A stretch of DNA of 64,000 nt from Giardia intestinalis (lineage: Eukaryota), in NCBI GenBank assembly GCA_000002435.2, contig CM018792.1, one strand, 5' to 3'. Below the pieces are notes generated by a model that ran no database searches, was not told the DNA's origin, and saw only the letters and a list, made by a program, of their open reading frames with translations. The position numbers and the translations under genes are program-made. This document shows, one piece after another, positions 29,651 through 51,460 of the stretch. The stretch's first letter is position 1. Every line of letters starts with the position of its first letter.

Positions 29651-29908
29651 GCACAACGCTGAAGGTGACTGGTAGATGGAGTGAAGAAGTCCGAAGCCCT
29701 AGTGCCCACCCTGCACTGGTGCCCAGCCGGCTACAACCCCACAATTGAAGTCATCTCTCGTTGGGCACTTGCCACACAAGGCAAGAAGGGCAGAGGGAAC
29801 CCAGGGCGTACAATCTGTGTTTGGTGCGCTATCTGGATGATCTGTAAACAATACCGTGAATCGCAAGTTTACCAGTACACGCGTTTCCTTTGTGACCATG
29901 GAATAAAA

Positions 29909-30580
29909 ATGTCGTCTACAGATGATTCGGATCACTGCTCTCAGGAGTGCGACCGTACCTTGCCTCCTACGCCCGAGAATGACACAGACGATGAGTATAT
30001 GAGTGAAGACATTCCCACCGAGTCTTCAGAGATGGATGGTGAAGATGGCATGGACGAGGACGGCGTCACTGAGCTCATGAAGGCGGCCAGACGAAACGAC
30101 GTAGATGCAGTGAAGCGCTATATTCCTCAGCAGGCGGGAATGGTGGCGAAGTTTTTCAAGGCGGGAGGCGTAAATATATATGAAGGGACAGCCCTGATGG
30201 TCGCCGCGGTGCTTGGACACGCCGAGGTGGTGAAGCTGCTGATGAAGCACGAGAGTGGAATGATGAGCAGCGATAAGCACACCGCCCTTATGTGGGCGGC
30301 AGTCAACGGTCATACTGAGGTTGTGAGGCTACTCGTGGAGGTTGAGGGCGGCATGAAGAGGAGCGAGGGCTGGACTGCTCTCGTCGGTGCAGCATCCTTT
30401 GGCCATTTGGAGTGTGTTAAATTACTGCTAGAGAAGGAGAAGGACGTAGGCGGCGAGGTTGCCCTCTACATGGCTAGTACATGGGGTAACTCCGAGGTGG
30501 TGTCTTTTCTCAAAAGTAAGGGTATTGTAGATCCATACTTACAAATGTTGTCCAGAAAGGCCGTGAGTGAACGCGCTTAA
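29909..30580 (+). CDS. Ankyrin-repeat protein (224 aa from ATG 29909; the track start 29681 is a GTG inside the GC-rich island)
   Basis: ATG 29909 is preceded by gaataaaaATG. Acidic N-terminus followed by ankyrin repeats (GTALMVAAVLGHAEVVKLLMK, HTALMWAAVNGHTEVVRLLVE, GWTALVGAASFGHLECVKLLLEKE). Confidence 0.75.
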   Translation: MSSTDDSDHCSQECDRTLPPTPENDTDDEYMSEDIPTESSEMDGEDGMDEDGVTELMKAARRNDVDAVKRYIPQQAGMVAKFFKAGGVNIYEGTALMVAAVLGHAEVVKLLMKHESGMMSSDKHTALMWAAVNGHTEVVRLLVEVEGGMKRSEGWTALVGAASFGHLECVKLLLEKEKDVGGEVALYMASTWGNSEVVSFLKSKGIVDPYLQMLSRKAVSERA

Positions 30581-30885
30581 CTGTTGATCGAGTTTGATGA
30601 TAGATCGGATTCCCCTCCAGCTGTGCAGCAAACAGACACCTCAATGAAGTGGTGGCTGTCAGTGGGGCACACAGCCACCCATTTCCTCAGAGGCCAGGGG
30701 AGCAGGCCTTCTCACCCTCGGTCAGCACTGCAATACTAGGGGTGGGTGAAACGGTCGCACAGGTGGTCTTCTCATCTCTTATGCAGAAGCCCTTCGTAAG
30801 CATTGGACCACTACAGATCTGTAGACACAAACCTCTGTGGAAACGGATCGTTTCCAAAACGGTAGATTACCAAAATAATACCAGG

Positions 30886-33131
30886 ATGGACACTTCCTCG
30901 TCTGAGCCTGCAACTGTGGCTCTCAGGGTCCCACTGTTCACCCCTAGGGAGCTTCATGAGCGGTTAGGTGATGGGCTTAATGAAAACACCATGGGGACAG
31001 TCTACTCTCTCAAGGGCTATCCAAACCTCGCTGTGCAGGAGATCCTCCTCGATGGCCTGGACAAGGGGGATCTGGACACCATCAGACTAGAGCTGGCCAC
31101 CCTTCTCGACCTCTCCCATCCGAGGGTCCTCAAGCACCACCAAGTAGTCGAGGACGAGGGCCTCATCTACGTCGTCACGGACCGGCACGACAGGACCCTC
31201 GAGCGCCTCCTCACCGAGCACAAACGAAGGAAGATCCCCGTGTCTGCCGGCGTGATCCTCTCCGTCATGAAACAGCTCGCCGCCGCCCTCGCCTATCTTC
31301 ATGGTCTCAGCGGGGTAGGTGCTAATGGGCTTGTCCACTGCGACCTCAGGCCTGCCAACGTCCTCATCAGCGCAGACGGGGAGCGCTTCGTCATCGCCGA
31401 CTTCGGCCTCTGCAGAAACACATTGTGGAGTGAGAGCACCATTGCAGGCATGGCAGTATACATGGCCCCCGAGATGCTCCTCCACAACGAGCCCAGCCCC
31501 GCCTCCGATGTGTGGAGCCTCGGGGTCATCCTCTACGAGATGGCCACTCTGAGGAGACCGGACTTCCTGAAAGGTAAAGACCCAAAAGACGTCTTCGTCG
31601 ACAGGTGGAGGCCGGACCTGAGCAGTGTCACCGATGGCTTCATAAAGAGTGTTCTGGAGAGGATATTCGTGCTGGAGCCAGAGGAAAGACTGACAGCCAG
31701 GGAGCTGCACGAGACGCTCACTGCGGCTGACATCCCAGTTGGTGAGCTGGGGGCTCAGTACGCGATGCTGAAGTACGAATGCGGATCCCTGAAGGCCGCT
31801 CTGAACAGTGCTAACGCTAGGATTGCTACTCTTGAGGCAGCCCTCGACGCCAGGTCTACTGAGATGGTGTCTCAGTCAACCGAGACTGCCTCTCTCAAGG
31901 ACGCACTTGAAGATCAGTGCAAGGAGCATCTGGCCATGATTAAGGCACTAGAGAATAGATTCACAGAATTTAGTGGTGGGATGAACACGAGTAGCTCCCA
32001 GATCAACCTCTCTGCGCTGCCTCAACTGATCCGTGCTGCACACACGAATAACATGGAGACTGTCCGGATGCTGGCTAACAAGAGGAACTACATCGGCCAG
32101 CGCGACGAGCAGGGGATGACGGCCCTCATGCACGCGGCCCAGCAGGGGCACATCGGTCCTGTCGAGCTGCTTGTTAGAAAAGAGAGGGGTCTCAAAGATA
32201 AGAGCGGTTGGACCGCGCTCATGCACGCTGCACACGGGAACCACCTTGAGGTAATTGAGATTCTCATCCCTTATGAACATAGGAAGAGGAGCAAGAATAA
32301 CCACACTGCCTTGATGATCGCCGTAAAAAAGGGCCACATAGAAGCTGCCTCCCTTCTAGTCTCATATGAGAAGAACCTGATCGACGACGAAGGCAAAACG
32401 GCCTTGGTGATTGCGGCAGAGGCAGGACATGAAGCTCTGATGGAGACCATCGACCCAACCGATGACAGGGGCGTCACGGCGCTCATGCGAGCCGTTGATA
32501 GAGGTGATATGGCAACAGCAAAAGCGCTTGTGGCTCTTCAACGAGGACGAGTGGCACATGGTGAGACGGCGCTAATGCAAGCAGTCACGTACGACAATAT
32601 AAATGGGATAAAATTATTACTGCCACATGAAAGCGGTATGCATGATAGATATGGTGCAACCGCCCTCATGAAAGCTGCCTATAAGGGTTACTTAGAGGCA
32701 GTAAAGTTATTAATAAAAAAGAAAGTGGGATGAAGGACAATTATAACAGGACTGCGCTCATGGAAGCGGCGGCTAGGAATCATTTGGAAATAGTTATAAT
32801 GTTAATAGAATATGAAGCATGCATGAGGGATAGCTTTGGGGAAACGGCCCTTATGAAGGCTGCTTCGAATGGTCATTTGGAGGTAGTTGAGCTGTTGATA
32901 GAATACGAAGCTGGTAAAAATGATGACTCTGGAGAAACAGCCCTTATGAAAGCCGCCCTCGGGGGCTATCTGAAGGTAGTCGAGCTGCTATTTGAAAGCG
33001 AGGGGTATCTAATAGACAAATCTGACAAATCCTTCTTTGGTAAGCTTGAGGCTAAGGGCTACTTTGAGATAGTATCTTTCCTTAGGGACAGCAGTAGAAC
33101 ATCTAGCACCGATGGCTACAGTTACTCTTAG
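30886..33131 (+). CDS. NEK-type kinase-ankyrin gene (NEK1 copy), split by a -1 frameshift in an A6 run at 32723-32728 (ORFs 30886-32733 and 32730-33131)
   Basis: Kinase subdomains present: HCDLRPANVLI, DFG and APE, followed by coiled coil and ankyrin repeats. Start placed at ATG 30886 by alignment with the paralogue at 60860 and the AT-rich taccaaaataataccaggATG. Adding one A in ttaataaaaaagaaagtgggATGaagg restores the expected ankyrin linker LLIKKESGMKD. Confidence 0.75.
31018..32074 (+). repeat. Segmental duplication / gene-conversion tract, copy A (pairs with 61001-62057)
   Basis: 31018-31077 identical to 61001-61060. A diverged 48-bp patch follows. Then 31126-32049 is identical to 61109-62032 (924 bp), with a single difference at 32050. 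Confidence 0.8.
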
Positions 33132-33930: not shown

Positions 33931-33937
33931 GGCATAT

Positions 33938-34395: not shown

Positions 34396-34675
34396 GCATC
34401 AAGAGATGTGCTGATAGCTTCCTGGGTCCTGATTCGCCAAGCACTGGGTAGTATCTAGCCGAAGGTCTCAAAAAGAGACAGACCCGCATCAGACGAACGA
34501 TAGTACCAGAGGGAGGGAGCTAGGAGTGCCTCCATCAGAATAAGCAGGACAGCCTTGTTAAGACAGCGTAGCTAACCAGTTATTCGCCTCTGTGCAACAA
34601 TGTCATGCGAATCTTCACTTTTTTATGACATGACATACAATTTATTATTGCACTACTTGTAAAGCAATTAAAAGG

Positions 34676-36121
34676 ATGGACTCGATTGAAGAGAAAACGG
34701 CCGACTCTGTGACCTGCCGCTTTGTCACCCAGCTTCCCATAGAGCTACAAATCGACGACGATGAGTATGCCATTCCTACCATGGCGACTCGACTGGAGTT
34801 ATCTCAGCTTATTAATACCTTAATAGGGCGCCCACACCCCCTTGCCTTTGACTTCTTGGTGAATGGCTCATTTATGCATACAGCACTTGGTGACCACTTG
34901 CTCCTAAATGAGATAAGCTCCGAACAGGCCTTGACGATAGAATATATCTTGGCACAGCTTCCTCCCTCTGATAAGTACACCCTTAAAGTGAGCGACTGGG
35001 TTTCCACAATCATTCCATCGATGAATGATTACTTTACCCTGCCTAAAGACATTAAGGATGCTGCTTTAGCATCTCTGTATGATGGATCCTTGGTGCTCTT
35101 CAACTTTGCCAGCCAAGATCAGGCAGATGATTATGACAGCGCCGATGAGCTGGTTGGTACACGACACCAAGTGTGCAAGCTATTCAGCACCCCAATAAAA
35201 GCTACCTGTCTTGTGAAGATCAACGATCAAATGCACGTCGCGGCTGGCGGATATGAGGGACGGATACTATGTTCTACAATCTCCGAGACTGATGCATCAT
35301 TCACACAAGAGGTCGAATATACCAATCTGAATAGCCCCATTCTCTCTCTGGCAAGCAACACGTCACTCTCCTACATGGCGGCGGGGACAGTCGACGGTTT
35401 GGTTTATCTCTATGATATAGCAAACACGCAGCGAGCGACAGAACCGATGGTAATGCAGGTAGAGCCTAGACCTAAACGCAAGCGTATCCACGGCAATACA
35501 ATAATCAAGACAGCCACAGAGCGCCTGTCCTTTTTGTTTCACTCGGTGCAGACGTCGGAGGCCCGTGCACACGACCCTTTCACAGTTGCCACAGATATCA
35601 ATAGCGTGACCTTCAGCAATGAGCATAATAGCCCTTATATTGCAGCTGGCTGTGCGGATAACTGCATCCGGTTCTATAATATCAAAAAGAATGCCCCAGC
35701 AGGACTCATATCCACAAATTCTTCCTGCCAAGTTCTGAAGTACATGAAGAGGTCTGACGACATGCTCCTCTGTGGCTTCAATAACAAGCTACTAAGGCTC
35801 TATGACACTAGGAAGGATAAGCCACTTGTGTCAACGTTCACAGGCCACAAGTCGTCCCTAACATGCTTAGATGTTCGGGATAACATGATCATTAGTGGGT
35901 CTATAGGCGGGGATCTGTGCGTATGGGATCCTAGGTCGTCTGTCCCGCTGTGGGTTGGAGATTGCTTTTATAGGAAATTGGAGCACAAACGGGATCAATC
36001 CCGATTACTTTCATGTGCCTTTGCGGTCAATGCATTGGCTCCTGTATTCTATCATGGAGGAAGCGACCGTCAGATAACGATGCGGAAGATAACAGACCCG
36101 CTTGCCCTTTCTCGAAAGTAA
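34676..36121 (+). CDS. Ribosome-biogenesis WD40 protein, WDR12/Ytm1-like (N-terminal NLE ubiquitin-like domain plus WD40 repeats)
   Basis: The N-terminus (VTCRFVTQLP...LSQLINTLIG..PLAFDFLVNG..LTIEYI) matches the NLE domain. DWVSTI follows, and WD repeats end in ...GSIGGDLCVWD. ATG at 34676 after attaaaaggATG. Confidence 0.6.
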   Translation: MDSIEEKTADSVTCRFVTQLPIELQIDDDEYAIPTMATRLELSQLINTLIGRPHPLAFDFLVNGSFMHTALGDHLLLNEISSEQALTIEYILAQLPPSDKYTLKVSDWVSTIIPSMNDYFTLPKDIKDAALASLYDGSLVLFNFASQDQADDYDSADELVGTRHQVCKLFSTPIKATCLVKINDQMHVAAGGYEGRILCSTISETDASFTQEVEYTNLNSPILSLASNTSLSYMAAGTVDGLVYLYDIANTQRATEPMVMQVEPRPKRKRIHGNTIIKTATERLSFLFHSVQTSEARAHDPFTVATDINSVTFSNEHNSPYIAAGCADNCIRFYNIKKNAPAGLISTNSSCQVLKYMKRSDDMLLCGFNNKLLRLYDTRKDKPLVSTFTGHKSSLTCLDVRDNMIISGSIGGDLCVWDPRSSVPLWVGDCFYRKLEHKRDQSRLLSCAFAVNALAPVFYHGGSDRQITMRKITDPLALSRK

Positions 36122-36122
36122 A
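36116..36122 (+). promoter_or_regulatory. Giardia poly(A) signal AGTAAAT overlapping the WDR12 stop codon
   Basis: cgaaAGTAAATtaa matches AGTRAAY at the stop. Confidence 0.5.
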
Positions 36123-36170
36123 TTAATTGTCTAGACATCAGCCCTTCTTTTCTTAAGTCCACGAAGTGAG

Positions 36171-36181
36171 AATTAAAAATG
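36171..36181 (+). promoter_or_regulatory. AT-rich initiator AATTAAAAATG at the start of the alpha/beta hydrolase gene
   Basis: Exact Giardia-type initiator abutting the ATG at 36179. Confidence 0.5.
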
Positions 36182-37006
36182 GTACAGACGCATAGCGTTC
36201 CTTTATACCCCCACAGCAGGGCCATTTACCGGGTAGACTCTGTGGCCATAGATGTGCTAGATAGAGGCAGTCCATTCACGTTTGTCCTAGTTCATGGGCA
36301 TTGCTCGAACAAGCACGCAATCTTCTTTGATGCAATCTTTGAAAGGTCTCCCCATAATGTGGTCCGATTTGACTCTCCAGGACAAGGGGATGCACCGGGT
36401 ACATACTCCCTCTCTTATGCGGATGAGGTTGACGTTCTATCCTCAGTCCTTGATCACCTTAAAGAATACATACAGGAGTGGGGGTTAAGCCGCACGGTGC
36501 TTGTGGGCCACTCGCGGGGAGCAAATATATCTCTGTTGTACATCCAAAGGTTGGTGTTGCAGTGTCCTGAGCAGCCTGAGCTACCTTATGTCGTGGTTGT
36601 CTCGGGGCGCTTTGATCTCTCCGGAACCTTAACCAGTCAACTCACACCTGAAGAAGTTCTACAATTAGAGAACGGCCACGAATTTACAAAAGCGTTTCCA
36701 GGTTGCAGGTGTCCTCTACTAGTGACACCAGCATTCATATTGGAACGCAGGAGCATCCAACTGGGAGACGCATGCCGTGTTCTCAGTCAAACAGACAGAC
36801 TTGCAGTACTTCATGGTACAAATGATCGGGCTGTTCCTCCGCAGGAGAGCTCTCTGATGGTCCAGTTTTATTCTGAGGAAAAGAAGAGGAGCAGGCTGAG
36901 ACTTGTGGATGAGGCTACACACAACTGGAAATACAAGCTCGAAGAAGGATATCATGCTTTCTGCGGACTTATAGAGGGACTACTTGTTGCTCACAGAAAA
37001 GACTAG
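36179..37006 (+). CDS. Alpha/beta-fold serine hydrolase
   Basis: VLVHGHCSN (HG motif) and GHSRG (GxSxG nucleophile elbow), followed by the acid and His region. Confidence 0.6.
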   Translation: MVQTHSVPLYPHSRAIYRVDSVAIDVLDRGSPFTFVLVHGHCSNKHAIFFDAIFERSPHNVVRFDSPGQGDAPGTYSLSYADEVDVLSSVLDHLKEYIQEWGLSRTVLVGHSRGANISLLYIQRLVLQCPEQPELPYVVVVSGRFDLSGTLTSQLTPEEVLQLENGHEFTKAFPGCRCPLLVTPAFILERRSIQLGDACRVLSQTDRLAVLHGTNDRAVPPQESSLMVQFYSEEKKRSRLRLVDEATHNWKYKLEEGYHAFCGLIEGLLVAHRKD

Positions 37007-37383
37007 GTAATACTGGTAAATCGCCTGCGTGTCACAAAAATAATACTATCTCCCCGGATGACCAGCAAAGGAAAGAAGCGGTTGAGTGAGTGTCCGGTCT
37101 CTTCTGCGTTAATTAAAATAAGATTCATATGTTCATCAAAGCTCGCCAAAAGTCCAGTTATGGACGAGTTATTTTGCAACAGAACGCTAACACGGTCTTC
37201 CAGGCTTGTCTTTAACAGGTAAAGAGGGTTTGAAAACTCCGTGTATTCAGGCGTGACTCTATCGCCAGCTGAACCGTGAAACAGGGGCGCTTCCATATAT
37301 TCTTCATTGCTGTGATCCACATCCATTCCAGTCTTCCGGCCAGCGCCTTCTGACTGTAAGTAGGTTAGCGAGGCTCCTGACAT
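37003..37383 (-). CDS. Sm-like (LSm) protein with an N-terminal extension
   Basis: Sm1/Sm2 pattern: LLKTSLEDRVSVLLQNNSSITGLLASFDEHMNLILINAEE ... LLVIRGDSIIFV. ATG at 37383. Confidence 0.55.
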   Translation of the reverse strand: MSGASLTYLQSEGAGRKTGMDVDHSNEEYMEAPLFHGSAGDRVTPEYTEFSNPLYLLKTSLEDRVSVLLQNNSSITGLLASFDEHMNLILINAEETGHSLNRFFPLLVIRGDSIIFVTRRRFTSIT

Positions 37384-37889
37384 TGTGCTGTTATTTTATA
37401 AATTAAGGCTCTCTTGTTTCTTTGGTTTTCAAATGGGTAAGTAAATGGTCCTTCTCCGCGTGATAAGTACGCCTGTGCATTACCGGGCTTTCTCCGTGGT
37501 TTAGGCCCTTTCATGCGTTCCACTGATGCTCTTAGATAAGTTGAGGATTGGTTGAGATTAGTTGACTGTGGCGTCTTATGGATGAAAAGAGTGAACTGGT
37601 GATGCGTTCTGCTTTACGGCAGCTAGCTAGCTGCAAGTAGAGTCCTACAGAGAAAATCAGTACAAAAGATAGTACATAGTTAAGTAACCCAATCAGGATT
37701 GGAGTCTGCTCGTGGCTGGATTGCTTCTTTGCACCTCGGATCCATGGGCAAATCAAGGTCCAAGCTCACCTCTGAGACAGTTCCAATTCTTTAAAACTTA
37801 ACTTTAAAACCTAATGGTTGTAACATACAATGTGTTTTATTTACACGCTAAGAATGTCTAAGGATCACAGCATATGATGATGGTGGTGA

Positions 37890-38645
37890 TCACTTCGACT
37901 GTCGACTGCCAACAAAGCTCCCAGTAAAGCTCCCAGCAAAGCTGCCAGTAAGGCTCACTCTGAGACGTGGTGTGCCGGTAGCAGATCCAGGAGTTGCAGG
38001 ACTGGTAGTTAATGACATAGCCCTCCCGAGCTTTGTGGTTGTACTGTGGGTAAACATAACGTTGATGGTGGAAAAGAATGCACGCAAGTCTTCCATTGCC
38101 TTTTGAGGCTCCTCAGTTTCACACTCCAACTCTACCATGCGGCCCGGCCTGGGCACAATGAATATGACGTTATCTAGTTCCAGGGTATGCTTTTTATACG
38201 TGTATCTGCGTCGCATAGTTGTAAAGGAAGCAATCTTCATAAGTGCTCCTTCAATCGCGTTGTCTAAAACCGTATGAAGGTCACATACATTGTTCTTGAA
38301 AAATGATAACACTCTTTCCCCTGTCGAATCGCCCATCAGAGCGCTATAGTCCTCTTTGGAGATGTGGACCTCCTCCTCTATTGCACGAAAGACTCCTGCA
38401 GCCGTGATGCTCGACTTTGCCTTCAAGGTGGCTGTGTAAGAAATGCTTGTCGCTGTCTTCAGTTCACGAAGACGCATGGATGCCTTCTGATGGGCCAGCT
38501 CGTGAGTTGCAGTGTCAAAGTAAGTGCTTGTTAGGGTCACCGAGCCTATATATTTTGCTTGTTTGTCTAGTTCCGTGAGGACTTGTGCGTACGAATTAGG
38601 GTCGCACAGCGTGAGTTTGATCTCCTGCTCAATATTGGACGGCAT
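37890..38645 (-). CDS. CYTH-domain protein (thiamine-triphosphatase-like triphosphate tunnel enzyme)
   Basis: N-terminal EIKLTL (ExExK signature) followed by YFDT, matching the eukaryotic ThTPase layout. The track start (38657) is a TTG; first ATG at 38645. Confidence 0.55.
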   Translation of the reverse strand: MPSNIEQEIKLTLCDPNSYAQVLTELDKQAKYIGSVTLTSTYFDTATHELAHQKASMRLRELKTATSISYTATLKAKSSITAAGVFRAIEEEVHISKEDYSALMGDSTGERVLSFFKNNVCDLHTVLDNAIEGALMKIASFTTMRRRYTYKKHTLELDNVIFIVPRPGRMVELECETEEPQKAMEDLRAFFSTINVMFTHSTTTKLGRAMSLTTSPATPGSATGTPRLRVSLTGSFAGSFTGSFVGSRQSK

Positions 38646-39989
38646 ATGTCTCACCAAAGGCCTGAAATATTTGATAATTTTGCTGGCGCACAGGTCATGA
38701 CGGTTGATGGCGAACCACAGCGTGATCTAAACCAAGCTAGGAGAATAGTGCTGGAGATGAAGGAGCCACTTTGTCGAATTCCTGAGGATCTGCGCTCACT
38801 CCTATCTGTAACCATATCGGTGTATTGCATTGAAACACCAAGCGCCCTCGTTTCCACCATCATTAAGAATATGCCGCCGGAGGCTTCTATAGCGCTAGTA
38901 ACTGGCTGCAGATTCTTGGCAGTTAGAGATGGCCCTCGAGGGAAGACGGTCACCGTTCTCTCCACAGCTTTTTTGTCTGGTCTGGACGAAAGCGTGACAC
39001 AGCAATTGTTTATCCACGCAGATACGTTGCTGCTCACGCCAGAGGCTCGCTCACGCATCAGTCTCCTTCAGGACATCATCGAAGACCCGCCAACCTCCTT
39101 TGAAACAGTAGGCCATATAGCACACTACAATCTTCGAGAGGCTCACCTCCCGTATAGGTACTTCATAGGCGCCGTCACCTGTGAAAAGGAGCCTGCCATC
39201 ACCACGGTTATCACCAAGATAGACACGGTTCAATCGCAGTACCGTACATACAACTTTGAGCTGATCGGAGGAGTCCCGCGGTATGACGTGAAGCTCGTGC
39301 AAGACGGAATAACCTACTCATTTAATTACACTAAGGTTTACTGGAACTCGCGGCTCTCACATGAGCACTTGTCACTTGCTCAGCATATCAACCAGACTAT
39401 CTGTCCCAATGACCTGGTGTTAGATGGGACATGTGGGATTGGTCCTCACGCCTTACTTCTAGCTAAACGTTTCAACTTTACCAATCTCATTTGCAATGAC
39501 TTGAACCCAGATGCATACAAATCCCTTAAAATGAATGTTCGTATAAATAAAGCAGAGAATGCCATTACATGCTTCAACGAAGATGTTTCCTCCCTTCTTA
39601 GGCGATTATTGCCGGAAACTAACCTTAAGGCTGTTATTTTCAGCCTCCCAGAACTCTCTATAAATCTGTTACAGGCTATGAAGGGGGTCCCTGATATCTA
39701 CTGCTTCCTTGAATGCTTCACACGAGCCCCTCCACACCTTGCATACTATGATTTGCTGCTTCGATGCTCTGAGTCTCTGCTTGATACTAAGGTATGTACC
39801 GGTATACAGCAGGCCTTATCGGACATAGAGAAGGTTGCAGAAAATAAAGAGTTGATAGACCTGTTAATAGCATGCTATGAGACATTTGAGGTCAAGGAAA
39901 TCCGGACTGTTTCAACTAATAAATTCATGTACAGGGTGACCCTAAAGATCAATGAACAAAAGGAAACAGTAAAGGTATTGAAAAAGTGA
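38646..39989 (+). CDS. TRM5: tRNA (guanine37-N1)-methyltransferase TRM5
   Basis: Trm5 motifs: ETVGHIAHYNLRE, KVYWNSRL, LDGTCGIGPHAL (AdoMet-binding) and NDLNPDAYKSL. The track start 38583 is a TTG. First ATG at 38646; an alternative is ATG 38697. Confidence 0.85.
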   Translation: MSHQRPEIFDNFAGAQVMTVDGEPQRDLNQARRIVLEMKEPLCRIPEDLRSLLSVTISVYCIETPSALVSTIIKNMPPEASIALVTGCRFLAVRDGPRGKTVTVLSTAFLSGLDESVTQQLFIHADTLLLTPEARSRISLLQDIIEDPPTSFETVGHIAHYNLREAHLPYRYFIGAVTCEKEPAITTVITKIDTVQSQYRTYNFELIGGVPRYDVKLVQDGITYSFNYTKVYWNSRLSHEHLSLAQHINQTICPNDLVLDGTCGIGPHALLLAKRFNFTNLICNDLNPDAYKSLKMNVRINKAENAITCFNEDVSSLLRRLLPETNLKAVIFSLPELSINLLQAMKGVPDIYCFLECFTRAPPHLAYYDLLLRCSESLLDTKVCTGIQQALSDIEKVAENKELIDLLIACYETFEVKEIRTVSTNKFMYRVTLKINEQKETVKVLKK

Positions 39990-39997
39990 GACTGTCA

Positions 39998-42900
39998 TTA
40001 CTGGGGCCTTCTTTTACCGGGCATGGCAGTCTGTGGTGGAGTGGTGAGCTTACGAGTTGTGGATGGCCTGCTTGCCGTGTTGGACTTAGCACCGGTACTC
40101 GGTCGTCCTTTCTTGCCCTTGGCTCCCTTCTTGCCCTTCTTGCCTTTGGTGCTCTTAGTAGGTCGAGGAGGCGTTTCAGGAGGAGTGAGCAAAGACTCGG
40201 TCACATCATAGCCGATGGGTCTTGCAATGGTATATGTCCCCGCGGCGACAGGAGCCATGCGCTCTATCACCTGGGCCATTATGTCTGGGTTCATCGCCCC
40301 TGTTGTCCTGTTTAGGTGTCTGCTTTGATAAGCACGGTTGATGATCTGGTTGTAGCTGTTTCTGAGGAGCTCAACCAACTTCTCTGCCTTCTTATTAATT
40401 TCTTCAACCTGCTTAATCTTTTGCTGGAGCTCACCTGCCTTCGCTTCCAGATCATCTATTTCTGCTTGATGAGTTAATTCTGCCTCTGTCATTTGCTTCA
40501 TGATATTTTGGTATTCCTCGTCAGCCTTGGATACGGCGAGCACTTCTTCGGCCAAATTGGCTTGTGCATTGGTTATTTGCTGCTGTATTTGGGCTGTAAT
40601 TAACGGTATCCGCTCTGTCTGTGCTTCGGTAGATTCCACAGCAATGTGTGATGCATCTTCTGTTTGCCTTATCTTCTGCTCTAGACTGGCCTTTTGCCGG
40701 ATAAACGCGTCCACCATTTCCTCTGTAAGAGCCTGAATCGAGCGTCTATGGCTGTCAGCCTCTGCCACCGTCTGAGTCATGAAATCGAGCTCTTCCTGAA
40801 GGATGTTCAATTGCTGCGTTTCTATCTTGTGCTCTGCAATCTGCTGCCTAAGCTTAGATGGGACACTCATTGTCACTGAACGTCGATTTCGTTTGAGAAT
40901 ATCTAAAAGTTTCAATGCGCTGGCATGCGAAACCTGGTTGCCACGCATTATCACCGTGGTGAGATTCTTGTTTTCCATAAGCATCGCTATGCCTATGTCG
41001 CCACCCTTAGACCCGATAAAGTTATCTCTTAAGTTCAAGCATACTAGGCTAGGCAAATTCAAACAAGCGAATGCCAGGGCGATAAATCCCGTATCTGAAA
41101 TGTGGCAAGTGGCTAAGTCGAGCGATCGAAGGCTCTTATTTACGCGTTCAGGGTTCAATAGCCTTGGTTTAGGCCGATATAGCTTTGCGCGCTCGAAGTC
41201 TGTGTAATACGAAATCACTTCGTTCATGTCCAGCTGGTCACAAAGGAGGGCACTGGCCAAGAGAGTTGCTCCGTGGTTATCGAGCTTGTTGTACGAAAGG
41301 TTTATGTGTCTGAACTGTGGTCTTGTACTGGCCAGTTTGCAAAAGTAGGCAATCCCTTGCTCGCGGATTCCATTAGACGAAAGATTGAGAGATGTAATAT
41401 TTGAATATTTAAGGTTTTGAAGATCTACATACGGTATGTATGTGCTATCTATTCCCATGTTGACGGCCAGTTGCTCCATCTGTGAGTACAAATCGTCCAA
41501 ACTTTGAGCATCCTCATTAACCTCATGCCCCTCTTCGGGGTTATATTCGCCATGATAGAGTGGCAGTTGCTTTGTCGTTTCGTTAATACTATTCTCCGAT
41601 ATATTGACAAAATGAGAATCATCGTCAGCTGTGTGCGCGTCGTTAACCATGGGTGTCTCACTATCCCTGGCCAGCAGCTCCATTGTTCTGTCTGCCATAC
41701 TATCGATAACATCCTCAGTGTTACTCGCGCCTGCAAAGCGGACGAATTCCTGAGGCTCTTTGGTGGGTTGCCCTCTGTCCCTAGAAGGAATGGCCACCTT
41801 GGTAACTATTTTGCCGGCAGTATCTCTTATTATAACAAGCTTGTTAGGGGCATTGCGCTTACCCTCGATTATTTTGTCAAAAAAGTCTTGCATATGATCG
41901 TATTCAGCCATCTGAACGTCTTGTTCCTCAGGCTTTTGTTCATCGTGAATAACTTTTTTAAGGAAGGCGTTGAAGTGGTCCCTATCAAGGCTGACGTCGA
42001 TGAGTGGGTTGGATAGTACACCACATATAATGGACACACCATCATCACCAAGTGCGCAGTTTTCCATTGCGAGAGTCGTCAGAGACCTAGAGCAAGACAG
42101 CCCATGTGCAATTGACATGGCCCCATCCAACCCCAAGGGGTTTCCAGACAAGTACAATTCTTGTAGAACACATCTAGGATTAGCAATAATGCAAGCTACC
42201 ATCGGCGCTGTGATAAACGTCATATGATTCCGCGACAAGTCGAGCCGTAGAAGAGACCCGTTGCGCCCCAGGCCGCGCAGAACTGCCGTGACACCGGCAT
42301 TTCCAAGTCGGTTAGCAGATAGATCAAGTGCGGTGAGTGTTGTGTTAACAGCGAGCATCGCACCTATGCTTGTCGGTCCATCTATGTCCAAAGACGCTGC
42401 ACCGAAACGACGCCGAGCGGTGCTGGATCCAGCCGGCCCATCAATCCCAGCTAAACCAATAAAGTTACCATTAAGGCCCAGATACTTCAATGTGTTGTTG
42501 TACATCAGCGCTTTCGCAATCCGAGCTGCAGAAGACGAATCAACGTAGTTGTTGTGGAGAGTTCCCGAAGAAGAGAACCCTTGTCTGCGTGGAGCTGCAA
42601 AAATGTATCCGGTCGGCTTTCCAAGCTCTATAGCTTCCAAGCCAGTGCCTCCCTGCAAAATCTCTGCCAGAGCCATACAGCCCTCCGTACCAATATTGTT
42701 ACAGCCCACACAGAGGCGCTTAAATGTTGAGTGCCGCTCTGAAAACTTCAACAAAGCCATGAAGCCGGTATCTTTAAGCATATTGTCATAGGCATCAATA
42801 TATGTAATTTGGTCAGATTCTAGACGCTTCATAAGAGTGATGGCACCTGCAGGACCAATCCGTATGGAACGTACTGACATACCGTTGCCTTTACTGGACC

Positions 42901-43015
42901 GAAAGACTTTGGTCATCCAATCCAAACCCTCCCTTGATGGAAGCTCCTCATTATCACGGCATATAGACAAGTAAACATCACGTATGAAATCTTGAGTGGA
43001 CCAAATGGGCTCCAT
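39998..43015 (-). CDS. Leucine-rich-repeat (RNI-like) plus long coiled-coil protein with a Lys/Gly-rich basic tail (1005 aa)
   Basis: LxxLxLxxNxIGxxG repeats at the N-terminus, about 300 aa of coiled coil, and a C-terminal KSTKGKKGKKGAKGKKGR. ATG verified at 43015. Confidence 0.55.
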   Translation of the reverse strand: MEPIWSTQDFIRDVYLSICRDNEELPSREGLDWMTKVFRSSKGNGMSVRSIRIGPAGAITLMKRLESDQITYIDAYDNMLKDTGFMALLKFSERHSTFKRLCVGCNNIGTEGCMALAEILQGGTGLEAIELGKPTGYIFAAPRRQGFSSSGTLHNNYVDSSSAARIAKALMYNNTLKYLGLNGNFIGLAGIDGPAGSSTARRRFGAASLDIDGPTSIGAMLAVNTTLTALDLSANRLGNAGVTAVLRGLGRNGSLLRLDLSRNHMTFITAPMVACIIANPRCVLQELYLSGNPLGLDGAMSIAHGLSCSRSLTTLAMENCALGDDGVSIICGVLSNPLIDVSLDRDHFNAFLKKVIHDEQKPEEQDVQMAEYDHMQDFFDKIIEGKRNAPNKLVIIRDTAGKIVTKVAIPSRDRGQPTKEPQEFVRFAGASNTEDVIDSMADRTMELLARDSETPMVNDAHTADDDSHFVNISENSINETTKQLPLYHGEYNPEEGHEVNEDAQSLDDLYSQMEQLAVNMGIDSTYIPYVDLQNLKYSNITSLNLSSNGIREQGIAYFCKLASTRPQFRHINLSYNKLDNHGATLLASALLCDQLDMNEVISYYTDFERAKLYRPKPRLLNPERVNKSLRSLDLATCHISDTGFIALAFACLNLPSLVCLNLRDNFIGSKGGDIGIAMLMENKNLTTVIMRGNQVSHASALKLLDILKRNRRSVTMSVPSKLRQQIAEHKIETQQLNILQEELDFMTQTVAEADSHRRSIQALTEEMVDAFIRQKASLEQKIRQTEDASHIAVESTEAQTERIPLITAQIQQQITNAQANLAEEVLAVSKADEEYQNIMKQMTEAELTHQAEIDDLEAKAGELQQKIKQVEEINKKAEKLVELLRNSYNQIINRAYQSRHLNRTTGAMNPDIMAQVIERMAPVAAGTYTIARPIGYDVTESLLTPPETPPRPTKSTKGKKGKKGAKGKKGRPSTGAKSNTASRPSTTRKLTTPPQTAMPGKRRPQ

Positions 43016-43099
43016 TCCTGCAGGAAGGTGTGGGCTACGTTAGAAGGCTAGCTGAAACTAAGATTTTGATTTTTATTCTTAACCAAACGATGCCTACTT

Positions 43100-43726
43100 T
43101 TACTTCTTAAGGAACTTGACGAATCTTCCTCTTCCCTTTCCACGTTGCGCCCTGCCACCACTTGGTCCTCCTTGACGCTCTCTCTGTGGACCAACGTACG
43201 TGCGCTTTGGAATGACGGTTAACTGTTCTCCATGAAAGAGCGTCCCATGCTTTGTGGCGATGACCCGGTTAACATCCTCGATTGTCGAGCACTTGATCAC
43301 AGCTGTGCGCAGCCCGCGGAACCCGTTTCTTCCCATATGCACCGCCTGGACTGAGCAAATTGCGCCAAATTCGTTACGCAGCATCACTTCTGTAACCGTC
43401 CGGGCAATATTTGTCACAAAAACAGAAACCTTGTCCGTCTCAGTTTGGATGTATAGAGAGTCGTCGCCCTTCTCCTCTGGAAGCTCTGAGACCAAGGTAT
43501 CGAGATCTATTTCTGCTGATTGAATGTCTGCAAGCTGTAGCAACGTGTGGAGGAGGACAAAGCCATTATCGGGAAGGGTCTTGAAGTATGCATAATCAGG
43601 GTCATCTGGCTCTACTAACTGCACAGTTGATTCGTCGGGAATACTCGTGCCTTCACCCTTTACTGCGTCCTCTCCCTGGCCCTTATTCTTCTCGGCCTGT
43701 CTTTGTCGCAGTAGAGTCAAGCTCAT
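43100..43726 (-). CDS. RRM-domain RNA-binding protein with a C-terminal RGG-like tail
   Basis: RRM-like core (KVSVFVTNI ... GFRGLRTAVIKC) and a GRAQRGKGRGR tail. The track start (44038) is non-ATG and would overlap the divergent ankyrin gene. Start placed at ATG 43726 (MSLTLLRQ...). Confidence 0.45.
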   Translation of the reverse strand: MSLTLLRQRQAEKNKGQGEDAVKGEGTSIPDESTVQLVEPDDPDYAYFKTLPDNGFVLLHTLLQLADIQSAEIDLDTLVSELPEEKGDDSLYIQTETDKVSVFVTNIARTVTEVMLRNEFGAICSVQAVHMGRNGFRGLRTAVIKCSTIEDVNRVIATKHGTLFHGEQLTVIPKRTYVGPQRERQGGPSGGRAQRGKGRGRFVKFLKK

Positions 43727-43864
43727 CCGTCCTCCAGCTCGTCCCGGCTCAACGTTGCTGGACTTGTTAAGCTTTTTGCCATATGCAATGAAGTAAAATA
43801 CAACAGAGTTTGACCATAAGATGTGCGCGTAATTTGAATAATTCTGGAGTAGAAAAAATCTTCT

Positions 43865-46021
43865 ATGGTTAACGAGCTCGATTGGTGGACTGCCGTGGAG
43901 AATAGCAATGTGCCCATGCTTCTGGGAATAGTATCTGTTTACGCCGGCTGCCGCAATCATGTTGGTCAGACTGCGTTGCACATGGCTGTCCAGATGCAGA
44001 GCGTCGCCATGATCCAGGTCCTGGCTGCGCACGAACATTCACTCCTGACTCCCGACGGCCGCACCGCGCTTATGTTAGCGATTGAGGGGAAGTACCTCGA
44101 GGGTATCGATCTCCTTGTGCCGTATGAAGCTGAGTATATAACGCCTCTGGGAACCACTGCGCTGATGTATGCTGCACAGGTAGGATACGTCCCAGCTGTG
44201 GAGAGACTCCTTGGGTATAACCTGGGCCTCGTTGATAGCTCAAATCGCACCGCACTTATCTATGCTGTGGAGCACAAGAACACGGAAGCAATGAAGTTGA
44301 TCCTGTCCAAGGGAGGAGCATCGTTCATGGCGGATGCTAGGTCTGCGCTGGACATTGCAAAGAGCACAAACCAAGACCTTGCTGCCAGGATATTGACCGA
44401 TTATATTTCCAAGCATGAGTATCTCGGGCAGGAAGTCGATCAGGGACCACTTGTGCCCAACTCTGGAGACACTACTAATAGTCTCAATCGTATTACCGGT
44501 GTTATGGAAGATCTTGATGAAGTGAAGAGCATTCTTAGCGCAATTCAGAAATCTGCCAATCCTATCGATGTAGAGGCAGTGCTAGCAGAGGAGCGACGTC
44601 TTTCTAGTACTAGCCCAGATAAGGGTAGCATGAACACAACGAGCCCTCTTACAAATAGTTTTAGATACAAAGCAGATATTGTGTCTCCCGTGCGTGGCAC
44701 GTCCCAAAATAACAATGACAGTTCTTCTCTTTATCCTGCGCCCAACGGTGGCAACGATGGCCTAGATTCCATAATGCGTATCAACCCAATAGAAACTGAG
44801 ATTAACACGCTCAAAGCCAGTTTCCGGTCTATCGGCAATACTGGCAAGCCATATGTAACAAAGTCAGGCAAGCTCATTAGCACACCTTCGTCTGAACTAA
44901 ACTCGGCTGCTAACACTCCTACTGGCCCTGGGATAACTGACACCAGACGGATGAGGGGTGCTAGGGAGTCGACGGTAGGGAAACAGTCGGGCATTACTTC
45001 TTCTTTTACTCAGAGCAAGCTTGCTAGCACTACTCGTGGAGTGACGAGCATCACTGCATCGAAGCGCGCATTTTCAATCGCCCGCCAAAGGCGCCCACTG
45101 TGTTTCGGGGAGGATAATCTCGGAAAAGCCTCCGTTGTCTCCGGTATAGATCTAAACGCTACTAAGAATCACTCTTCAACGATGAAACTGGACAATAATG
45201 ACCACACTGCCCTTATGGAAGCGGCACGCCTCGGAAACGTTTCTCGCGTTAAGGAACTTATCAAATCGGAATCGGGAAGGCAAAATAAAGATGGCTATAG
45301 TGCCCTGATGTATGCCAGTATAATGGACCAGCTAGAATGTGCACAAATCCTGATTCCTTACGAGGTTGGCTTGACTACTGACAACGGTTGGACATCGCTC
45401 ATGCTTGCAGCAGAAATGGGAAACATCCGCTTGGTCAACGAGCTTTTGCCTCACGAGGCCTGCTATCAGGACCACGATGGGTATACTGCCCTTATGATAG
45501 CTGCCGAAGAGGGACATGGAGACGTGGTAAAGCTCCTCATTTCAAAGGAGGCGGGTATGAATGATAACCAGGGTGGCTCTGCACTTATGAGGGCCGCGTC
45601 CAACGGGCACTCCAACATTGTCGCACTATTGGTGCCCCACGAAGGTGGGATGCAACGTAAAGACGGATACACCGCCCTCATGAGTGCTGCGTACCATGGA
45701 CATCTGGCTTCTGCTGAGCTATTGGTTCCTGAAGAGGCTGGAATGACAATGGGTGACGGCTGGACGGCCTTGATGTGTGCTGCACAGAATGGGCACTTAG
45801 GTGTTGTCCGATGTCTAGGTTCTGAGGAAGGAATGAAGACTATCTCTGGCTGGTGCGCCGTTATGAGCGCCGCAAGCAACAACCACCGCAAAGTGGTCGA
45901 TCTGTTAGTCAATGAGGTCCCTATAAAAGATAAGTCGGGAAATGACGCACGCACCTATGCTAAGCTAAATGGTCACGACGCACTCTTTGATTACATGTCC
46001 GGGTATGAAAGAAGAAGGTAA
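43865..46021 (+). CDS. Ankyrin-repeat protein (protein 21.1 family, 718 aa)
   Basis: ATG at 43865. Long Ser/Thr-rich middle region, then about 10 ankyrin repeats. Confidence 0.85.
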   Translation: MVNELDWWTAVENSNVPMLLGIVSVYAGCRNHVGQTALHMAVQMQSVAMIQVLAAHEHSLLTPDGRTALMLAIEGKYLEGIDLLVPYEAEYITPLGTTALMYAAQVGYVPAVERLLGYNLGLVDSSNRTALIYAVEHKNTEAMKLILSKGGASFMADARSALDIAKSTNQDLAARILTDYISKHEYLGQEVDQGPLVPNSGDTTNSLNRITGVMEDLDEVKSILSAIQKSANPIDVEAVLAEERRLSSTSPDKGSMNTTSPLTNSFRYKADIVSPVRGTSQNNNDSSSLYPAPNGGNDGLDSIMRINPIETEINTLKASFRSIGNTGKPYVTKSGKLISTPSSELNSAANTPTGPGITDTRRMRGARESTVGKQSGITSSFTQSKLASTTRGVTSITASKRAFSIARQRRPLCFGEDNLGKASVVSGIDLNATKNHSSTMKLDNNDHTALMEAARLGNVSRVKELIKSESGRQNKDGYSALMYASIMDQLECAQILIPYEVGLTTDNGWTSLMLAAEMGNIRLVNELLPHEACYQDHDGYTALMIAAEEGHGDVVKLLISKEAGMNDNQGGSALMRAASNGHSNIVALLVPHEGGMQRKDGYTALMSAAYHGHLASAELLVPEEAGMTMGDGWTALMCAAQNGHLGVVRCLGSEEGMKTISGWCAVMSAASNNHRKVVDLLVNEVPIKDKSGNDARTYAKLNGHDALFDYMSGYERRR

Positions 46022-46050
46022 ATGCTTTTTATAAATTATAAAGAGAGGGC

Positions 46051-47493
46051 ATGCAGCTGGCCAGCGTCGAGGATTGGTTTAGGGCCGTATCGAACAGGGA
46101 GTACCGCCTTGTTTCCACCAACCTATTCCAGTATAAGCAGTCTCGAGACAGCAAGGGAGAGACTGCGCTTATGTGGGCGGCGCGCCACGGCGACTTGGAG
46201 CTTGTCCACATACTGGCCCCAGCCGAGCATGCAATGGTCAACAGCGAGGGCTACACATCTATTATGCTTGCGGCGGCCGGAAACCACTACGAGATATGTA
46301 AGATATTGGCTCCCTTTGAGGCTCGCGACACACTTCCAGATGGCAGGACTGCCCTTATGTTAGCAGCAGAGGCGGGCTCGCTGGAATCAGTACAGGTGTT
46401 GGTACGTTATAATAGATTCAGTTTTGACAAGCGAGGACGAACAGCATTGACAATAGCCGCGGAAAATAATCGGATTGATTGTGTTATAGAGCTCCTAGAT
46501 GGCGTTCATGGGCGATACTGCTATGATTCTAGGATGGCCTTGATCATAGCAGCCGAGAAGCATTATGAGGAGCTGGCTAAGCTTCTTGCGGATTATATTT
46601 CCGAGGCTCAACCAAATTTACTGCAGGAGCATGCGCCGGTAGGCGAAAAGGACGACTCCAATCTGCTTAGTATGGATACGTCGAACATCGTGGTGGACGT
46701 GCAGTCAGATTTTGCAGAATTAAGAAAGCTACTTAAGCTGTACAAGGAAGAGGCAGCTGCTAAGGATCTAGCGCTTCTAAATATGAACTCTCTTCTAGTG
46801 GAGGCCGATACAACAGACGCTCGCAGTGCAAACCAGTCTCTTAGCGAGGCATCTAGACTGTCAAGCTCTCTTGTCACTAGAACGGGCTTATTTGATAGTG
46901 GGGGTCCAGGCAACTCCCCTGGCTCCATTATTGGTATGGGGAGGGCTGCCAATCTTGAGAGGCTTCTACGGGACGTCCCCCAGCCTTACCAAAACGCACT
47001 CATGACCGCCTCCCTAACTCGAATGTATGAGAGCGATGACTGCATGACTGCAATGATGGGGGCAGCATACCTTGGCCACGTGGCTGTTGTGGAGGCCCTA
47101 ATGGACACTGAGGCTGCTCGCCGAAACAAGACGGGGCATACGGCTTTAATGATCGCAATTCAATATGATCACCAGAAGGTCGCTGAATTACTGATACCCC
47201 TCGAGTTTGGTATTGTCGACAATGAAGGCTGGACAGCCCTTATGCTGGCGGCCCAACGCGGGAATATCCATTTGGTGACTCAACTTATCGATCACGAAGC
47301 TGGCGCCCAAGCAAATGATGGGTGGACAGCTTTGATGAGTGCTGCGTTTAATGGACACTTAGAATGTACCCGGATTCTGGCTTCTGTCGAAGGAGGAATC
47401 GTGGACTATCATGGGAAAAGTGCATCCCAATATGCACAGGAAGCAGGCCACACTGAGATAGCCCGTCTTCTTCTGGATATGACTGGGATATGA
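46051..47493 (+). CDS. Ankyrin-repeat protein (protein 21.1 family, 480 aa)
   Basis: ATG at 46051, 29 bp after the previous stop. Ankyrin repeats at both ends. Confidence 0.85.
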   Translation: MQLASVEDWFRAVSNREYRLVSTNLFQYKQSRDSKGETALMWAARHGDLELVHILAPAEHAMVNSEGYTSIMLAAAGNHYEICKILAPFEARDTLPDGRTALMLAAEAGSLESVQVLVRYNRFSFDKRGRTALTIAAENNRIDCVIELLDGVHGRYCYDSRMALIIAAEKHYEELAKLLADYISEAQPNLLQEHAPVGEKDDSNLLSMDTSNIVVDVQSDFAELRKLLKLYKEEAAAKDLALLNMNSLLVEADTTDARSANQSLSEASRLSSSLVTRTGLFDSGGPGNSPGSIIGMGRAANLERLLRDVPQPYQNALMTASLTRMYESDDCMTAMMGAAYLGHVAVVEALMDTEAARRNKTGHTALMIAIQYDHQKVAELLIPLEFGIVDNEGWTALMLAAQRGNIHLVTQLIDHEAGAQANDGWTALMSAAFNGHLECTRILASVEGGIVDYHGKSASQYAQEAGHTEIARLLLDMTGI

Positions 47494-47516
47494 TCACCTA
47501 CTTTCTTATTCTAGTA

Positions 47517-49331: not shown

Positions 49332-49350
49332 TTCAATACAGGGGTCACCA

Positions 49351-49357
49351 ATTTACT
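49351..49357 (-). promoter_or_regulatory. Poly(A) signal AGTAAAT for CTP synthase, inside the 29-bp spacer before the next gene
   Basis: On the minus strand: ...GM TGA ttAAGTAAATtgg. Confidence 0.5.
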
Positions 49358-49360
49358 TAA

Positions 49361-51223: not shown

Positions 51224-51293
51224 GAAATAGCAATTATTTTATTCCCTTTACTCCGCAATACCATTACCTTTCAATAAGGCGTCTAACCCGGCT

Positions 51294-51460
51294 GTGAATG
51301 AGGTGAATAATCATAGGATATCATATGAGGAAAATATTGTGGTACTTACTCTTACCGCAATTGCAAAGCGTGGGAGTGTCACAGAATATCCTGATTCCAC
51401 GTATGAGAACGGTGTCACAGCTCTCATAAGAGCTGCAAATAGGGGAGAGTGGAAACAGCA
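51294..51460 (+). pseudogene. Orphan single ankyrin-repeat fragment (...YENGVTALIRAANRGEW...) with no ATG, at the edge of the second GC-rich island
   Basis: GTG-initiated ORF whose only recognisable content is one ankyrin-repeat-like unit. It dissolves into GC-rich non-coding sequence. Confidence 0.3.

What the first reader, a model, noticed from the sequence alone, without database searches (positions are those of the whole stretch)
31018..32074. About 1 kb of the NEK kinase core is identical between two paralogues 30 kb apart, with a mosaic conversion pattern
Positions 31126-32049 match 61109-62032 base for base (924 bp), with one difference at 32050. They are flanked by 60 identical bp (31018-31077 / 61001-61060) separated by a 48-bp patch of clustered substitutions. 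Downstream the two genes are only moderately similar, with different ankyrin arrays. The pattern of identical core, diverged patch, identical segment, then divergent flanks points to a gene-conversion tract between dispersed NEK paralogues rather than a simple recent duplication.
Basis: seen in the sequence. Interest (0 to 1): 0.6.

Follow-up and report, generated by a model that had tools for sequence, protein, structure and literature searches.

The report
Gene conversion between two Giardia NEK genes
Two inactive-kinase genes 30 kb apart on a Giardia chromosome keep overwriting each other's kinase-coding core by gene conversion, also taking short pieces from a third relative; this is real but is an ordinary process in a gene family already known to change fast.

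Summary
Window 31124-32049 equals 61107-62032 base for base (926 bp). A 65-bp identical block and a 46-bp patch with 19 substitutions lie upstream. The window is Giardia intestinalis WB. The genes are GL50803_32958 (A, 30886-32733) and GL50803_9870 (B, 60860-63445), both Nek-GL4 kinase-ankyrin proteins annotated as catalytically dead (K72Q).

Gene conversion is supported over recent duplication. Both loci exist at the same positions in the A2 isolate DH. Their unique flanks are 91-100% identical to WB over most of their length, yet the WB core differs from the DH core by about 9%. In DH the two paralogues are also 100% identical to each other, from the same left boundary, over the 391 bp available. 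That is concerted evolution.

The diverged patch in gene A matches a third paralogue (DH_C) at 18 of 19 sites. Two short segments inside the shared WB core also carry that third type. The pattern therefore needs several events and at least three participants.

The 2007 Sanger-based kinome table already gives the same protein sequence for both cores, which argues against an assembly artefact. Direction of transfer is unresolved.

The family's rapid turnover was known, and recombination among neighbouring vsp genes was known. Conversion among NEKs was not stated in the papers I read. Interest is modest.

The parts
30886..32733 (+). Gene A = GL50803_32958 (Nek-GL4). Kinase domain, coiled coil and ankyrin repeats, 615 aa from the family-typical ATG. 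Manning's model starts at the ATG at 30781.
   Evidence: ORF; Pfam Pkinase and Ank; first 399 aa identical to Manning Additional file 1 entry G102; the C-terminal 322 aa equal XP_001709650.1.
60860..63445 (+). Gene B = GL50803_9870 (Nek-GL4), 861 aa, with the same kinase core but a different N-terminus and a longer, different ankyrin array.
   Evidence: ORF; Pfam; first 399 aa identical to Manning entry G101.
31124..32049 (+). Identical core, copy A (926 bp, 308 complete codons): most of the kinase domain plus the coiled coil.
   Evidence: 0 mismatches against 61107-62032; 85 sites differ from the DH orthologue.
61107..62032 (+). Identical core, copy B.
30999..31077 (+). Left end of the tract in A. 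The boundary lies at 30998/30999. There are 2 mismatches (31008, 31012), then 65 identical bp (31013-31077). It contains the K72Q codon CAG at 31036-31038.
   Evidence: The same boundary is seen in DH, where DH_A and DH_B become identical at B coordinate 60982.
60982..61060 (+). Left end of the tract in B.
31078..31123 (+). Diverged patch in A (19 substitutions against B), carrying the sequence type of a third paralogue.
   Evidence: WB_A equals DH_C at 18/19 sites and MG_A at 16/19; WB_A and DH_C are identical over 31054-31122.
61061..61106 (+). The same patch in B, carrying the type shared with both DH copies.
   Evidence: WB_B = DH_A = DH_B, 100%.
31208..31295 (+). Segment inside the shared core that is identical to the third paralogue DH_C and unlike the A-locus orthologues.
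   Evidence: 88-bp identical stretch with DH_C. At 7 sites (31242-31272) DH_C = WB while MG_A = DH_A. A second block of 5 such sites lies at 31526-31545.
32050..32322 (+). Right edge of the tract in A: one mismatch at 32050, a clustered patch at 32075-32090, 36 identical bp at 32091-32126, then decaying similarity.
   Evidence: Here A matches its orthologues (98.7% to MG_A, 94.8% to DH_A over 32050-32126) and B differs.
32714..32733 (+). 1-bp deletion in WB gene A relative to DH, giving a premature stop (..KKKVG*). The orthologues run on for about 130 further residues.
   Evidence: Alignment to DH; DH and metagenome proteins; the same end is found in XP_001709650.1.
34400..51400 (.). Conserved single-copy housekeeping block between the two copies (WD40/NLE, LSM, TRM5/TYW2, CTP synthase, GiOR-1). 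It is retained, so the exchanges were not crossovers.
   Evidence: About 17-kb contigs in many independent read sets; 98.9% identity and the same gene order in DH; WB protein identities.
54545..60496 (+). VSP gene directly upstream of gene B (signal peptide, 26.0 perfect 222-bp repeats, CRGKA tail). It is context for the VSP-ARP-NEK cassette.
29909..30580 (+). Ankyrin-only ORF upstream of gene A, part of the same cassette. It is also present upstream of the NEK in DH, in the metagenome contig and at the DH_C locus.

Best explanation
The two genes are old paralogues of the Giardia Nek-GL4 family. They lie in the same orientation 30 kb apart on one WB chromosome, each in a GC-rich island of variable genes (VSP, ankyrin protein, NEK). 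Their kinase-plus-coiled-coil region, about 1.05 kb from 30999 to about 32050 in A, is repeatedly copied from one to the other by non-crossover homologous recombination, that is, ectopic gene conversion during repair of DNA breaks. The pair therefore evolves in concert: identical within a genome, different between lineages. Shorter tracts of roughly 50-90 bp from other GL4 paralogues are also pasted in. Some have since been spread to both copies (31208-31295, 31526-31545). One (31078-31123) so far sits only in gene A and is the 'diverged patch'. What is shown: the identity, both loci being older than the A1/A2 split, parallel homogenisation in DH, third-paralogue tracts, and retention of the intervening block. 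What is inferred: the molecular mechanism (break repair or synthesis-dependent strand annealing), the order of events, and the direction of transfer, which the data leave open.
For: The 926-bp identity and its sharp edges. Permutation test: a run of 164 variable sites against a maximum of 24 in shuffles. None of the 308 codons differs between A and B, whereas the WB core and the DH_A core differ in 26 codons synonymously and in 42 with amino-acid changes, so the identity is not due to protein constraint. Locus A in DH: flanks 99-100% identical, core 90.8%, patch 60.4%. Locus B in DH: N-terminal 122 bp 96.7% identical to WB_B. DH_A = DH_B at 100% from the same boundary through the patch and 264 bp of core, while WB and DH differ there by 7.6%. 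Expected A/B differences if there had been no conversion since the split are 10-22; 0 are observed (P of 4e-5 or less). Third paralogue: 18/19 patch sites and 69- and 88-bp identical stretches with DH_C. Sites where WB and DH differ cluster in runs when polarised with the metagenome orthologue (26 runs against 41 expected, z = -3.46). At protein level the core's best match switches among different GL4 members. The intervening 17 kb is intact in many read sets and in DH. The same protein sequences appear in the 2007 Sanger-based kinome table. The long-read WB assembly was polished with long reads only.
Against: Only 391 bp of the tract in DH_B could be seen, because the DH contig ends inside the core. 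DH is an older draft, and such assemblies can mis-join repeats. The metagenome orthologue is a single assembled contig of unknown assemblage. No read-level data for WB could be examined. No WB DNA outside the window could be fetched, so the WB counterpart of DH_C (the presumed donor) was not seen. Direction of transfer is ambiguous: of the sites where WB and DH differ, the metagenome orthologue agrees with DH at 49 and with WB at 34.
Confidence: 0.85

Rival explanations
1. A single conversion event with a discontinuous tract. One heteroduplex between A and B was repaired in patches, and the 46-bp patch is simply the part of gene A that escaped conversion.
For: The patch in WB_A resembles the metagenome orthologue of locus A (16/19 sites, 83% overall), so it could be ancestral A-locus sequence. 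Patchy mismatch repair is an established cause of discontinuous tracts (general knowledge).
Against: One event cannot explain why DH_A and DH_B are also identical to each other yet 7.6-9% different from WB. It also cannot explain why two segments inside the shared WB core carry the DH_C type while DH_A and the metagenome orthologue agree with each other. The patch is closer to DH_C (18/19 sites, 69 bp identical) than to the locus-A orthologue, so a third lineage is involved in any case.
Confidence: 0.1
2. A recent partial duplication or a chimeric gene. About 1.3 kb was copied once, recently, and the rest of the pattern is ordinary divergence.
For: Manning et al. 2011 describe GL4 pairs with over 98% identity as very recent duplicates.
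Against: Both loci, with their own distinct flanks, are present in DH, so both genes predate the A1/A2 split. Homology between A and B extends, diverged, on both sides of the identical tract. A one-off copy would not produce parallel identity in DH.
Confidence: 0.03
3. An assembly or polishing artefact. The two copies really differ, and reads from one were used to build or correct the other.
For: The 2007 annotation of gene A carried a truncated 322-aa model that begins inside the core at 31765. No full-length protein for A or B is in the protein collection searched. A 2025 re-annotation reports 31 Nek-GL4 or unclassified kinases of the 2011 catalogue missing from the new proteome. I could not inspect reads.
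Against: The curated kinome table built on the 2007 Sanger assembly lists both genes with the same 399 residues as the window, including each gene's own N-terminus and patch joined to the common core. The long-read WB assembly was polished with Quiver on PacBio reads that are far longer than the tract. Sharp edges with clustered substitutions are not what mis-polishing produces. An independent assembly of another isolate shows the same boundary.
Confidence: 0.02

Closest known systems
Nek-GL4 subfamily of Giardia NEK kinases (Manning et al. 2011, PMC3218828)
   Same: Both genes are listed there as Nek-GL4 and as 'Dead Nek' lacking K72. The paper reports rapid gain, loss and pseudogenisation, five pairs with over 98% identity, and 'Identical KD to it's neighbor' notes for other members.
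   Different: The paper reads the high identity as very recent duplication. The words 'conversion' and 'recombination' do not occur in its main text. Here the pair is shown to be old and homogenised, with tracts from a third member.
Recombination among Giardia vsp genes (Adam et al. 2010, PMC2996952; cited as segmental gene conversion in Xu et al. 2020, PMC7641422)
   Same: Same genome and same variable islands. Mosaic sequence relationships among family members are detected by recombination tests.
   Different: That work concerns the surface-antigen genes. Kinase and ankyrin genes are not mentioned in it. Here the exchanged unit is the kinase core of cytoplasmic pseudokinases linked to VSPs.
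Concerted evolution of dispersed paralogues by ectopic gene conversion in other organisms (general knowledge, e.g. globin and other duplicated gene pairs)
   Same: Paralogues are identical within a genome and diverged between lineages, tract edges are sharp, and no crossover occurs between direct repeats.
   Different: Nothing mechanistically distinctive was found here. The setting is an organism without demonstrated meiosis and with very low heterozygosity.

Membership tests
Giardia Nek-GL4 kinase-ankyrin family | N-terminal protein kinase domain followed by an ankyrin repeat array | tested here: met
   Pfam Pkinase (E 1e-33 and 6e-31) plus Ank families in both genes.
Giardia Nek-GL4 kinase-ankyrin family | Listed as Nek-GL4 in the curated WB kinome | tested here: met
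   Exact match of 399 printed residues to GL50803_32958 and GL50803_9870, both classed Nek-GL4.
Catalytically active protein kinase | Conserved K72 (VAIK), D166 (HRD) and D184 (DFG) | tested here: not met
   Both genes have LAVQEI (K72 replaced by Q, codon CAG at 31036-31038). HCD and DFG are present. Manning annotates both as dead.
Interlocus (ectopic) gene conversion tract | A run of identity significantly longer than the surrounding divergence predicts | tested here: met
   164 consecutive concordant variable sites against at most 24 in 20,000 shuffles.
Interlocus (ectopic) gene conversion tract | Both loci older than the identical tract | tested here: met
   Syntenic loci A and B in DH with orthologous flanks. 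0 differences observed against 10-22 expected.
Interlocus (ectopic) gene conversion tract | Paralogues more alike within a genome than orthologues between genomes | tested here: met
   WB_A = WB_B and DH_A = DH_B at 100%, with WB against DH at 92.4% over the shared 264 bp of core. Only 391 bp of the DH_B tract was available.
Interlocus (ectopic) gene conversion tract | Non-crossover outcome, with the intervening DNA retained | tested here: met
   The housekeeping block between the direct repeats is intact in WB, in DH and in many read-set assemblies.
Interlocus (ectopic) gene conversion tract | Identified donor and direction of transfer | tested here: inconclusive
   Outgroup polarisation is mixed, 49 against 34 sites. 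A third lineage (DH_C) is implicated for three short segments, but its WB counterpart could not be fetched.
Assembly collapse or cross-talk | Identity not supported by reads that span each copy | not testable with these tools
   No read data were available. Indirect evidence against comes from the independent 2007 protein sequences and long-read polishing.

The most novel reading that the evidence does not exclude
The Nek-GL4 pseudokinase genes that sit in VSP-ankyrin-NEK cassettes are a conversion-driven mosaic family. On this reading, many 'very recent duplicates' and 'strain-specific' GL4 genes are old loci that keep being overwritten by one another. The same ectopic recombination that shuffles vsp genes acts on their kinase neighbours at a rate high enough to homogenise a pair independently in sub-assemblages A1 and A2. 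This would give a direct, countable readout of mitotic homologous recombination in an organism whose sexual cycle and near-absent heterozygosity are unexplained.
Probability: 0.45. Interest if true: 0.5.

Novelty: new member of a known kind. Interest (0 to 1): 0.33.

Why it matters
It changes how one reads this gene family. Identity between GL4 NEK genes cannot be taken as evidence of recent duplication. Counts of orthologues and of 'strain-specific' genes between Giardia isolates will also be distorted by conversion. It shows that ectopic homologous recombination is active and recent in Giardia WB and DH. That bears on the open question of how this tetraploid parasite, with no demonstrated meiosis, keeps its gene copies so uniform. 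The inactivating K72Q change also lies inside the exchanged segment, so conversion can spread a 'dead kinase' allele between loci. None of this is a new kind of mechanism.

Tried and rejected
Exact-product look-ups found nothing for gene A, gene B, the 322-aa 2007 model, the two ankyrin ORFs beside gene A, and the WB paralogue P0011. No read-set contigs of WB-type isolates could therefore be obtained across the tract, and no WB DNA outside the window.

A scan of metagenome contigs for a 50-bp conserved piece of the core found nothing.

A search with gene B's ankyrin half gave a 723-bit hit (P0089, Protein 21.1) that proved to be only a paralogue, so gene B has no entry in the protein collection.

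I tried to infer the direction of transfer from the metagenome orthologue. The result is mixed (49 against 34 sites, in runs) and I do not claim a direction.

I considered protein-level constraint as the cause of identity and rejected it, because all synonymous sites are also identical.

The antisense ORFs over the core (31087-31710 and 60959-61693, minus strand) were treated as by-products of GC-rich coding sequence and not pursued.

The supplementary tables of the 2025 kinome re-annotation are not held, so I could not confirm that these two genes are among the 31 missing from the new proteome.

Full report
**What is in the sequence.** At a fixed offset of 29983 the window matches itself perfectly from 31124 to 32049 (61107-62032), which is 926 bp. 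Upstream lies a 65-bp identical block (31013-31077). It is separated from the core by a 46-bp patch (31078-31123) with 19 substitutions. Downstream there is a second clustered patch (32075-32090, 10 substitutions), then 36 identical bases, then steadily falling similarity to about 32322. Further out the two loci are unrelated on the 5' side. On the 3' side they have ankyrin arrays that are only about 42% alike. In a four-sequence alignment the longest stretch of variable sites with no A/B difference is 164 sites, against at most 24 in 20,000 shuffles.

**Organism and genes.** The tandem-repeat ORF upstream of the second copy ends in CRGKA, the tail of a Giardia variant-specific surface protein. 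Three housekeeping proteins of the window are exact matches to Giardia intestinalis WB proteins (CTP synthase XP_001709668.1/KAE8303741.1, a WD40 protein, GiOR-1), on a 2.76-Mb chromosome. Both copies encode an N-terminal kinase domain, a coiled coil and ankyrin repeats. The curated WB kinome of Manning et al. 2011 lists them as follows:
- Gene A (window 30886-32733; Manning's model starts at 30781) is GL50803_32958.
- Gene B (60860-63445) is GL50803_9870.
- Both are classed Nek-GL4 and 'Dead Nek' because the ATP-binding lysine K72 is glutamine (LAVQ).
- The 399 residues printed for each are identical to the window.

The K72Q codon (31036-31038) lies inside the exchanged segment. Gene A is also cut short. 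A 1-bp deletion at about 32714 relative to the DH orthologue gives a premature stop, and the same end is present in the 2007 model XP_001709650.1.

**Not a recent duplication.** The A2 isolate DH carries both loci on one contig. Locus A (L012) has the same gene order. Its DNA is 99-100% identical to WB just upstream of the gene and in the C-terminal ankyrin part, but only 90.8% identical in the core (85 differing sites) and 60.4% in the patch. Locus B (L019) has the VSP and then a NEK whose first 122 coding bases are 96.7% identical to WB gene B. The contig ends 391 bp into the tract. Both genes therefore predate the A1/A2 split. If they had simply diverged since then, 10-22 differences would be expected in 926 bp; none is seen (P of 4e-5 or less). 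Protein constraint cannot explain this. No codon differs between A and B, while the WB and DH cores differ in 26 codons synonymously and in 42 with amino-acid changes.

**Concerted evolution.** In DH the two paralogues are 100% identical to each other from B coordinate 60982 (A coordinate 30999) through the patch and the 264 bp of core that can be seen. This is exactly the left boundary seen in WB. Immediately upstream they are 52% alike. Over that same stretch of core WB and DH differ by 7.6%. The paralogues are thus identical within each genome and different between genomes, with a shared boundary. That is the signature of repeated interlocus gene conversion, not of one event.

**More than two participants.** The patch sequence of WB gene B is identical to both DH copies, so WB gene A is the odd one out. 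WB gene A's patch matches a third GL4 paralogue, DH_C, at 18 of 19 sites, with 69 identical bases (31054-31122). DH_C lies on another DH contig, again in a VSP-ankyrin-NEK cassette. Inside the core shared by WB A and B, an 88-bp stretch (31208-31295) is identical to DH_C. At 7 sites there, and at 5 sites in 31526-31545, DH_C agrees with WB while DH_A agrees with the metagenome-derived orthologue of locus A (L018). When sites where WB and DH differ are polarised with that orthologue, they fall into alternating runs (26 runs against 41 expected, z = -3.46). At protein level the best match of successive 24-residue windows of the core switches among different family members. DH gene A also has stretches that look overwritten, for example 32239-32438, where WB is 89% identical to the metagenome orthologue but DH only 69-77%.

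**Most likely mechanism.** The two genes are direct repeats. They bracket a block of single-copy housekeeping genes that is intact in WB, in DH and in about 17-kb contigs from many independent read sets. A crossover between the repeats would delete that block, so the exchanges that survive are non-crossover repair events that copy sequence from one paralogue into the other. I infer, but have not shown, the following sequence of events:
- Short tracts (roughly 50-90 bp) come in from other GL4 members.
- Longer tracts (about 1 kb) pass between A and B and spread these changes to both copies.
- The patch in WB gene A is either a recent short tract not yet spread, or a piece that escaped the last long tract.

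Either way a third lineage is involved. The direction of the last long event cannot be decided from these data.

**Is it an artefact?** I could not inspect reads, and look-ups for contigs from WB-type read sets across the tract found nothing. Four indirect arguments count against an artefact:
- The kinome table built on the 2007 Sanger assembly joins each gene's own N-terminus and patch to the same core.
- The long-read WB assembly was polished with long reads only.
- The tract edges are sharp, with clustered substitutions.
- An independent assembly of another isolate shows the same boundary.

That the window comes from that long-read assembly is my inference from exact protein matches. Neither full-length protein is in the protein collection searched. 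This fits a 2025 report that 31 Nek-GL4 or unclassified kinases of the 2011 catalogue are missing from the new WB proteome.

**What is known and what is new.** The GL4 subfamily's rapid turnover, its near-identical pairs and its 'identical kinase domain to its neighbour' cases are published, but are read as recent duplication. 'Conversion' and 'recombination' do not occur in that paper's main text. Recombination among vsp genes is established. NEK and ankyrin genes have been called possible anchoring points for rearrangement in G. muris. I found no paper among those searched that describes gene conversion among Giardia NEK genes. The finding is a clear, well-supported new example of a familiar process in a family already known to be unstable. 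It is useful for interpreting Giardia comparative genomics and as a marker of active mitotic recombination, but it is not surprising in kind.

Noticed in passing
window 54545-60496 (+); repeats 54604-60366: A 1983-aa VSP gene made almost entirely of 26.0 perfectly identical 222-bp (74-aa) tandem repeats between a signal peptide and the CRGKA tail. In the DH contig the same unit, 100% identical to WB's, appears only about once, which may be assembly collapse.
   Followed up: partly
window 54496-60489 (-) and 54581-60334 (-): Two ORFs of about 1900-2000 aa on the opposite strand of the VSP repeat array. They are most likely by-products of a stop-free periodic repeat rather than genes.
   Followed up: no
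window 34073-34393 and 60597-60783: Fragments resembling the conserved 3' end of VSP genes lie downstream of the gene A island and between the VSP and gene B. The two are 88% identical to each other over 187 bp. DH has a 112-aa VSP-family ORF at the first position. Short-read contigs of many isolates end here.
   Followed up: partly
window 32714-33125: WB gene A has lost about 130 C-terminal residues through a 1-bp deletion. The downstream sequence is still 98-100% identical to the intact DH gene, so the truncation is recent.
   Followed up: yes
window 28000-34400 and 52000-64000: The two variable-gene islands are markedly GC-richer (0.55-0.65) than the housekeeping DNA around them (0.43-0.51).
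   Followed up: no
L022 (DH contig AHGT01000055.1) 2-6036; window 29760-32073: A third locus in DH has the same order, VSP, ankyrin-only ORF, then NEK. Its ankyrin-plus-NEK part aligns to the gene A island at 78%. This suggests that a cassette, not just the kinase gene, is the duplicated unit.
   Followed up: partly
window 51095-54816: The stretch between CTP synthase and the VSP, including a 226-aa ORF (52719-53399) with no Pfam match, is only 91.6% identical between WB and DH. The housekeeping block next to it is 98.9% identical.
   Followed up: no
window 33112-33930 (+): An ankyrin plus RING-finger ORF (ARP-2 type) lies directly after gene A. It is 98-100% identical to DH over most of its length but differs at its C-terminal end.
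   Followed up: no
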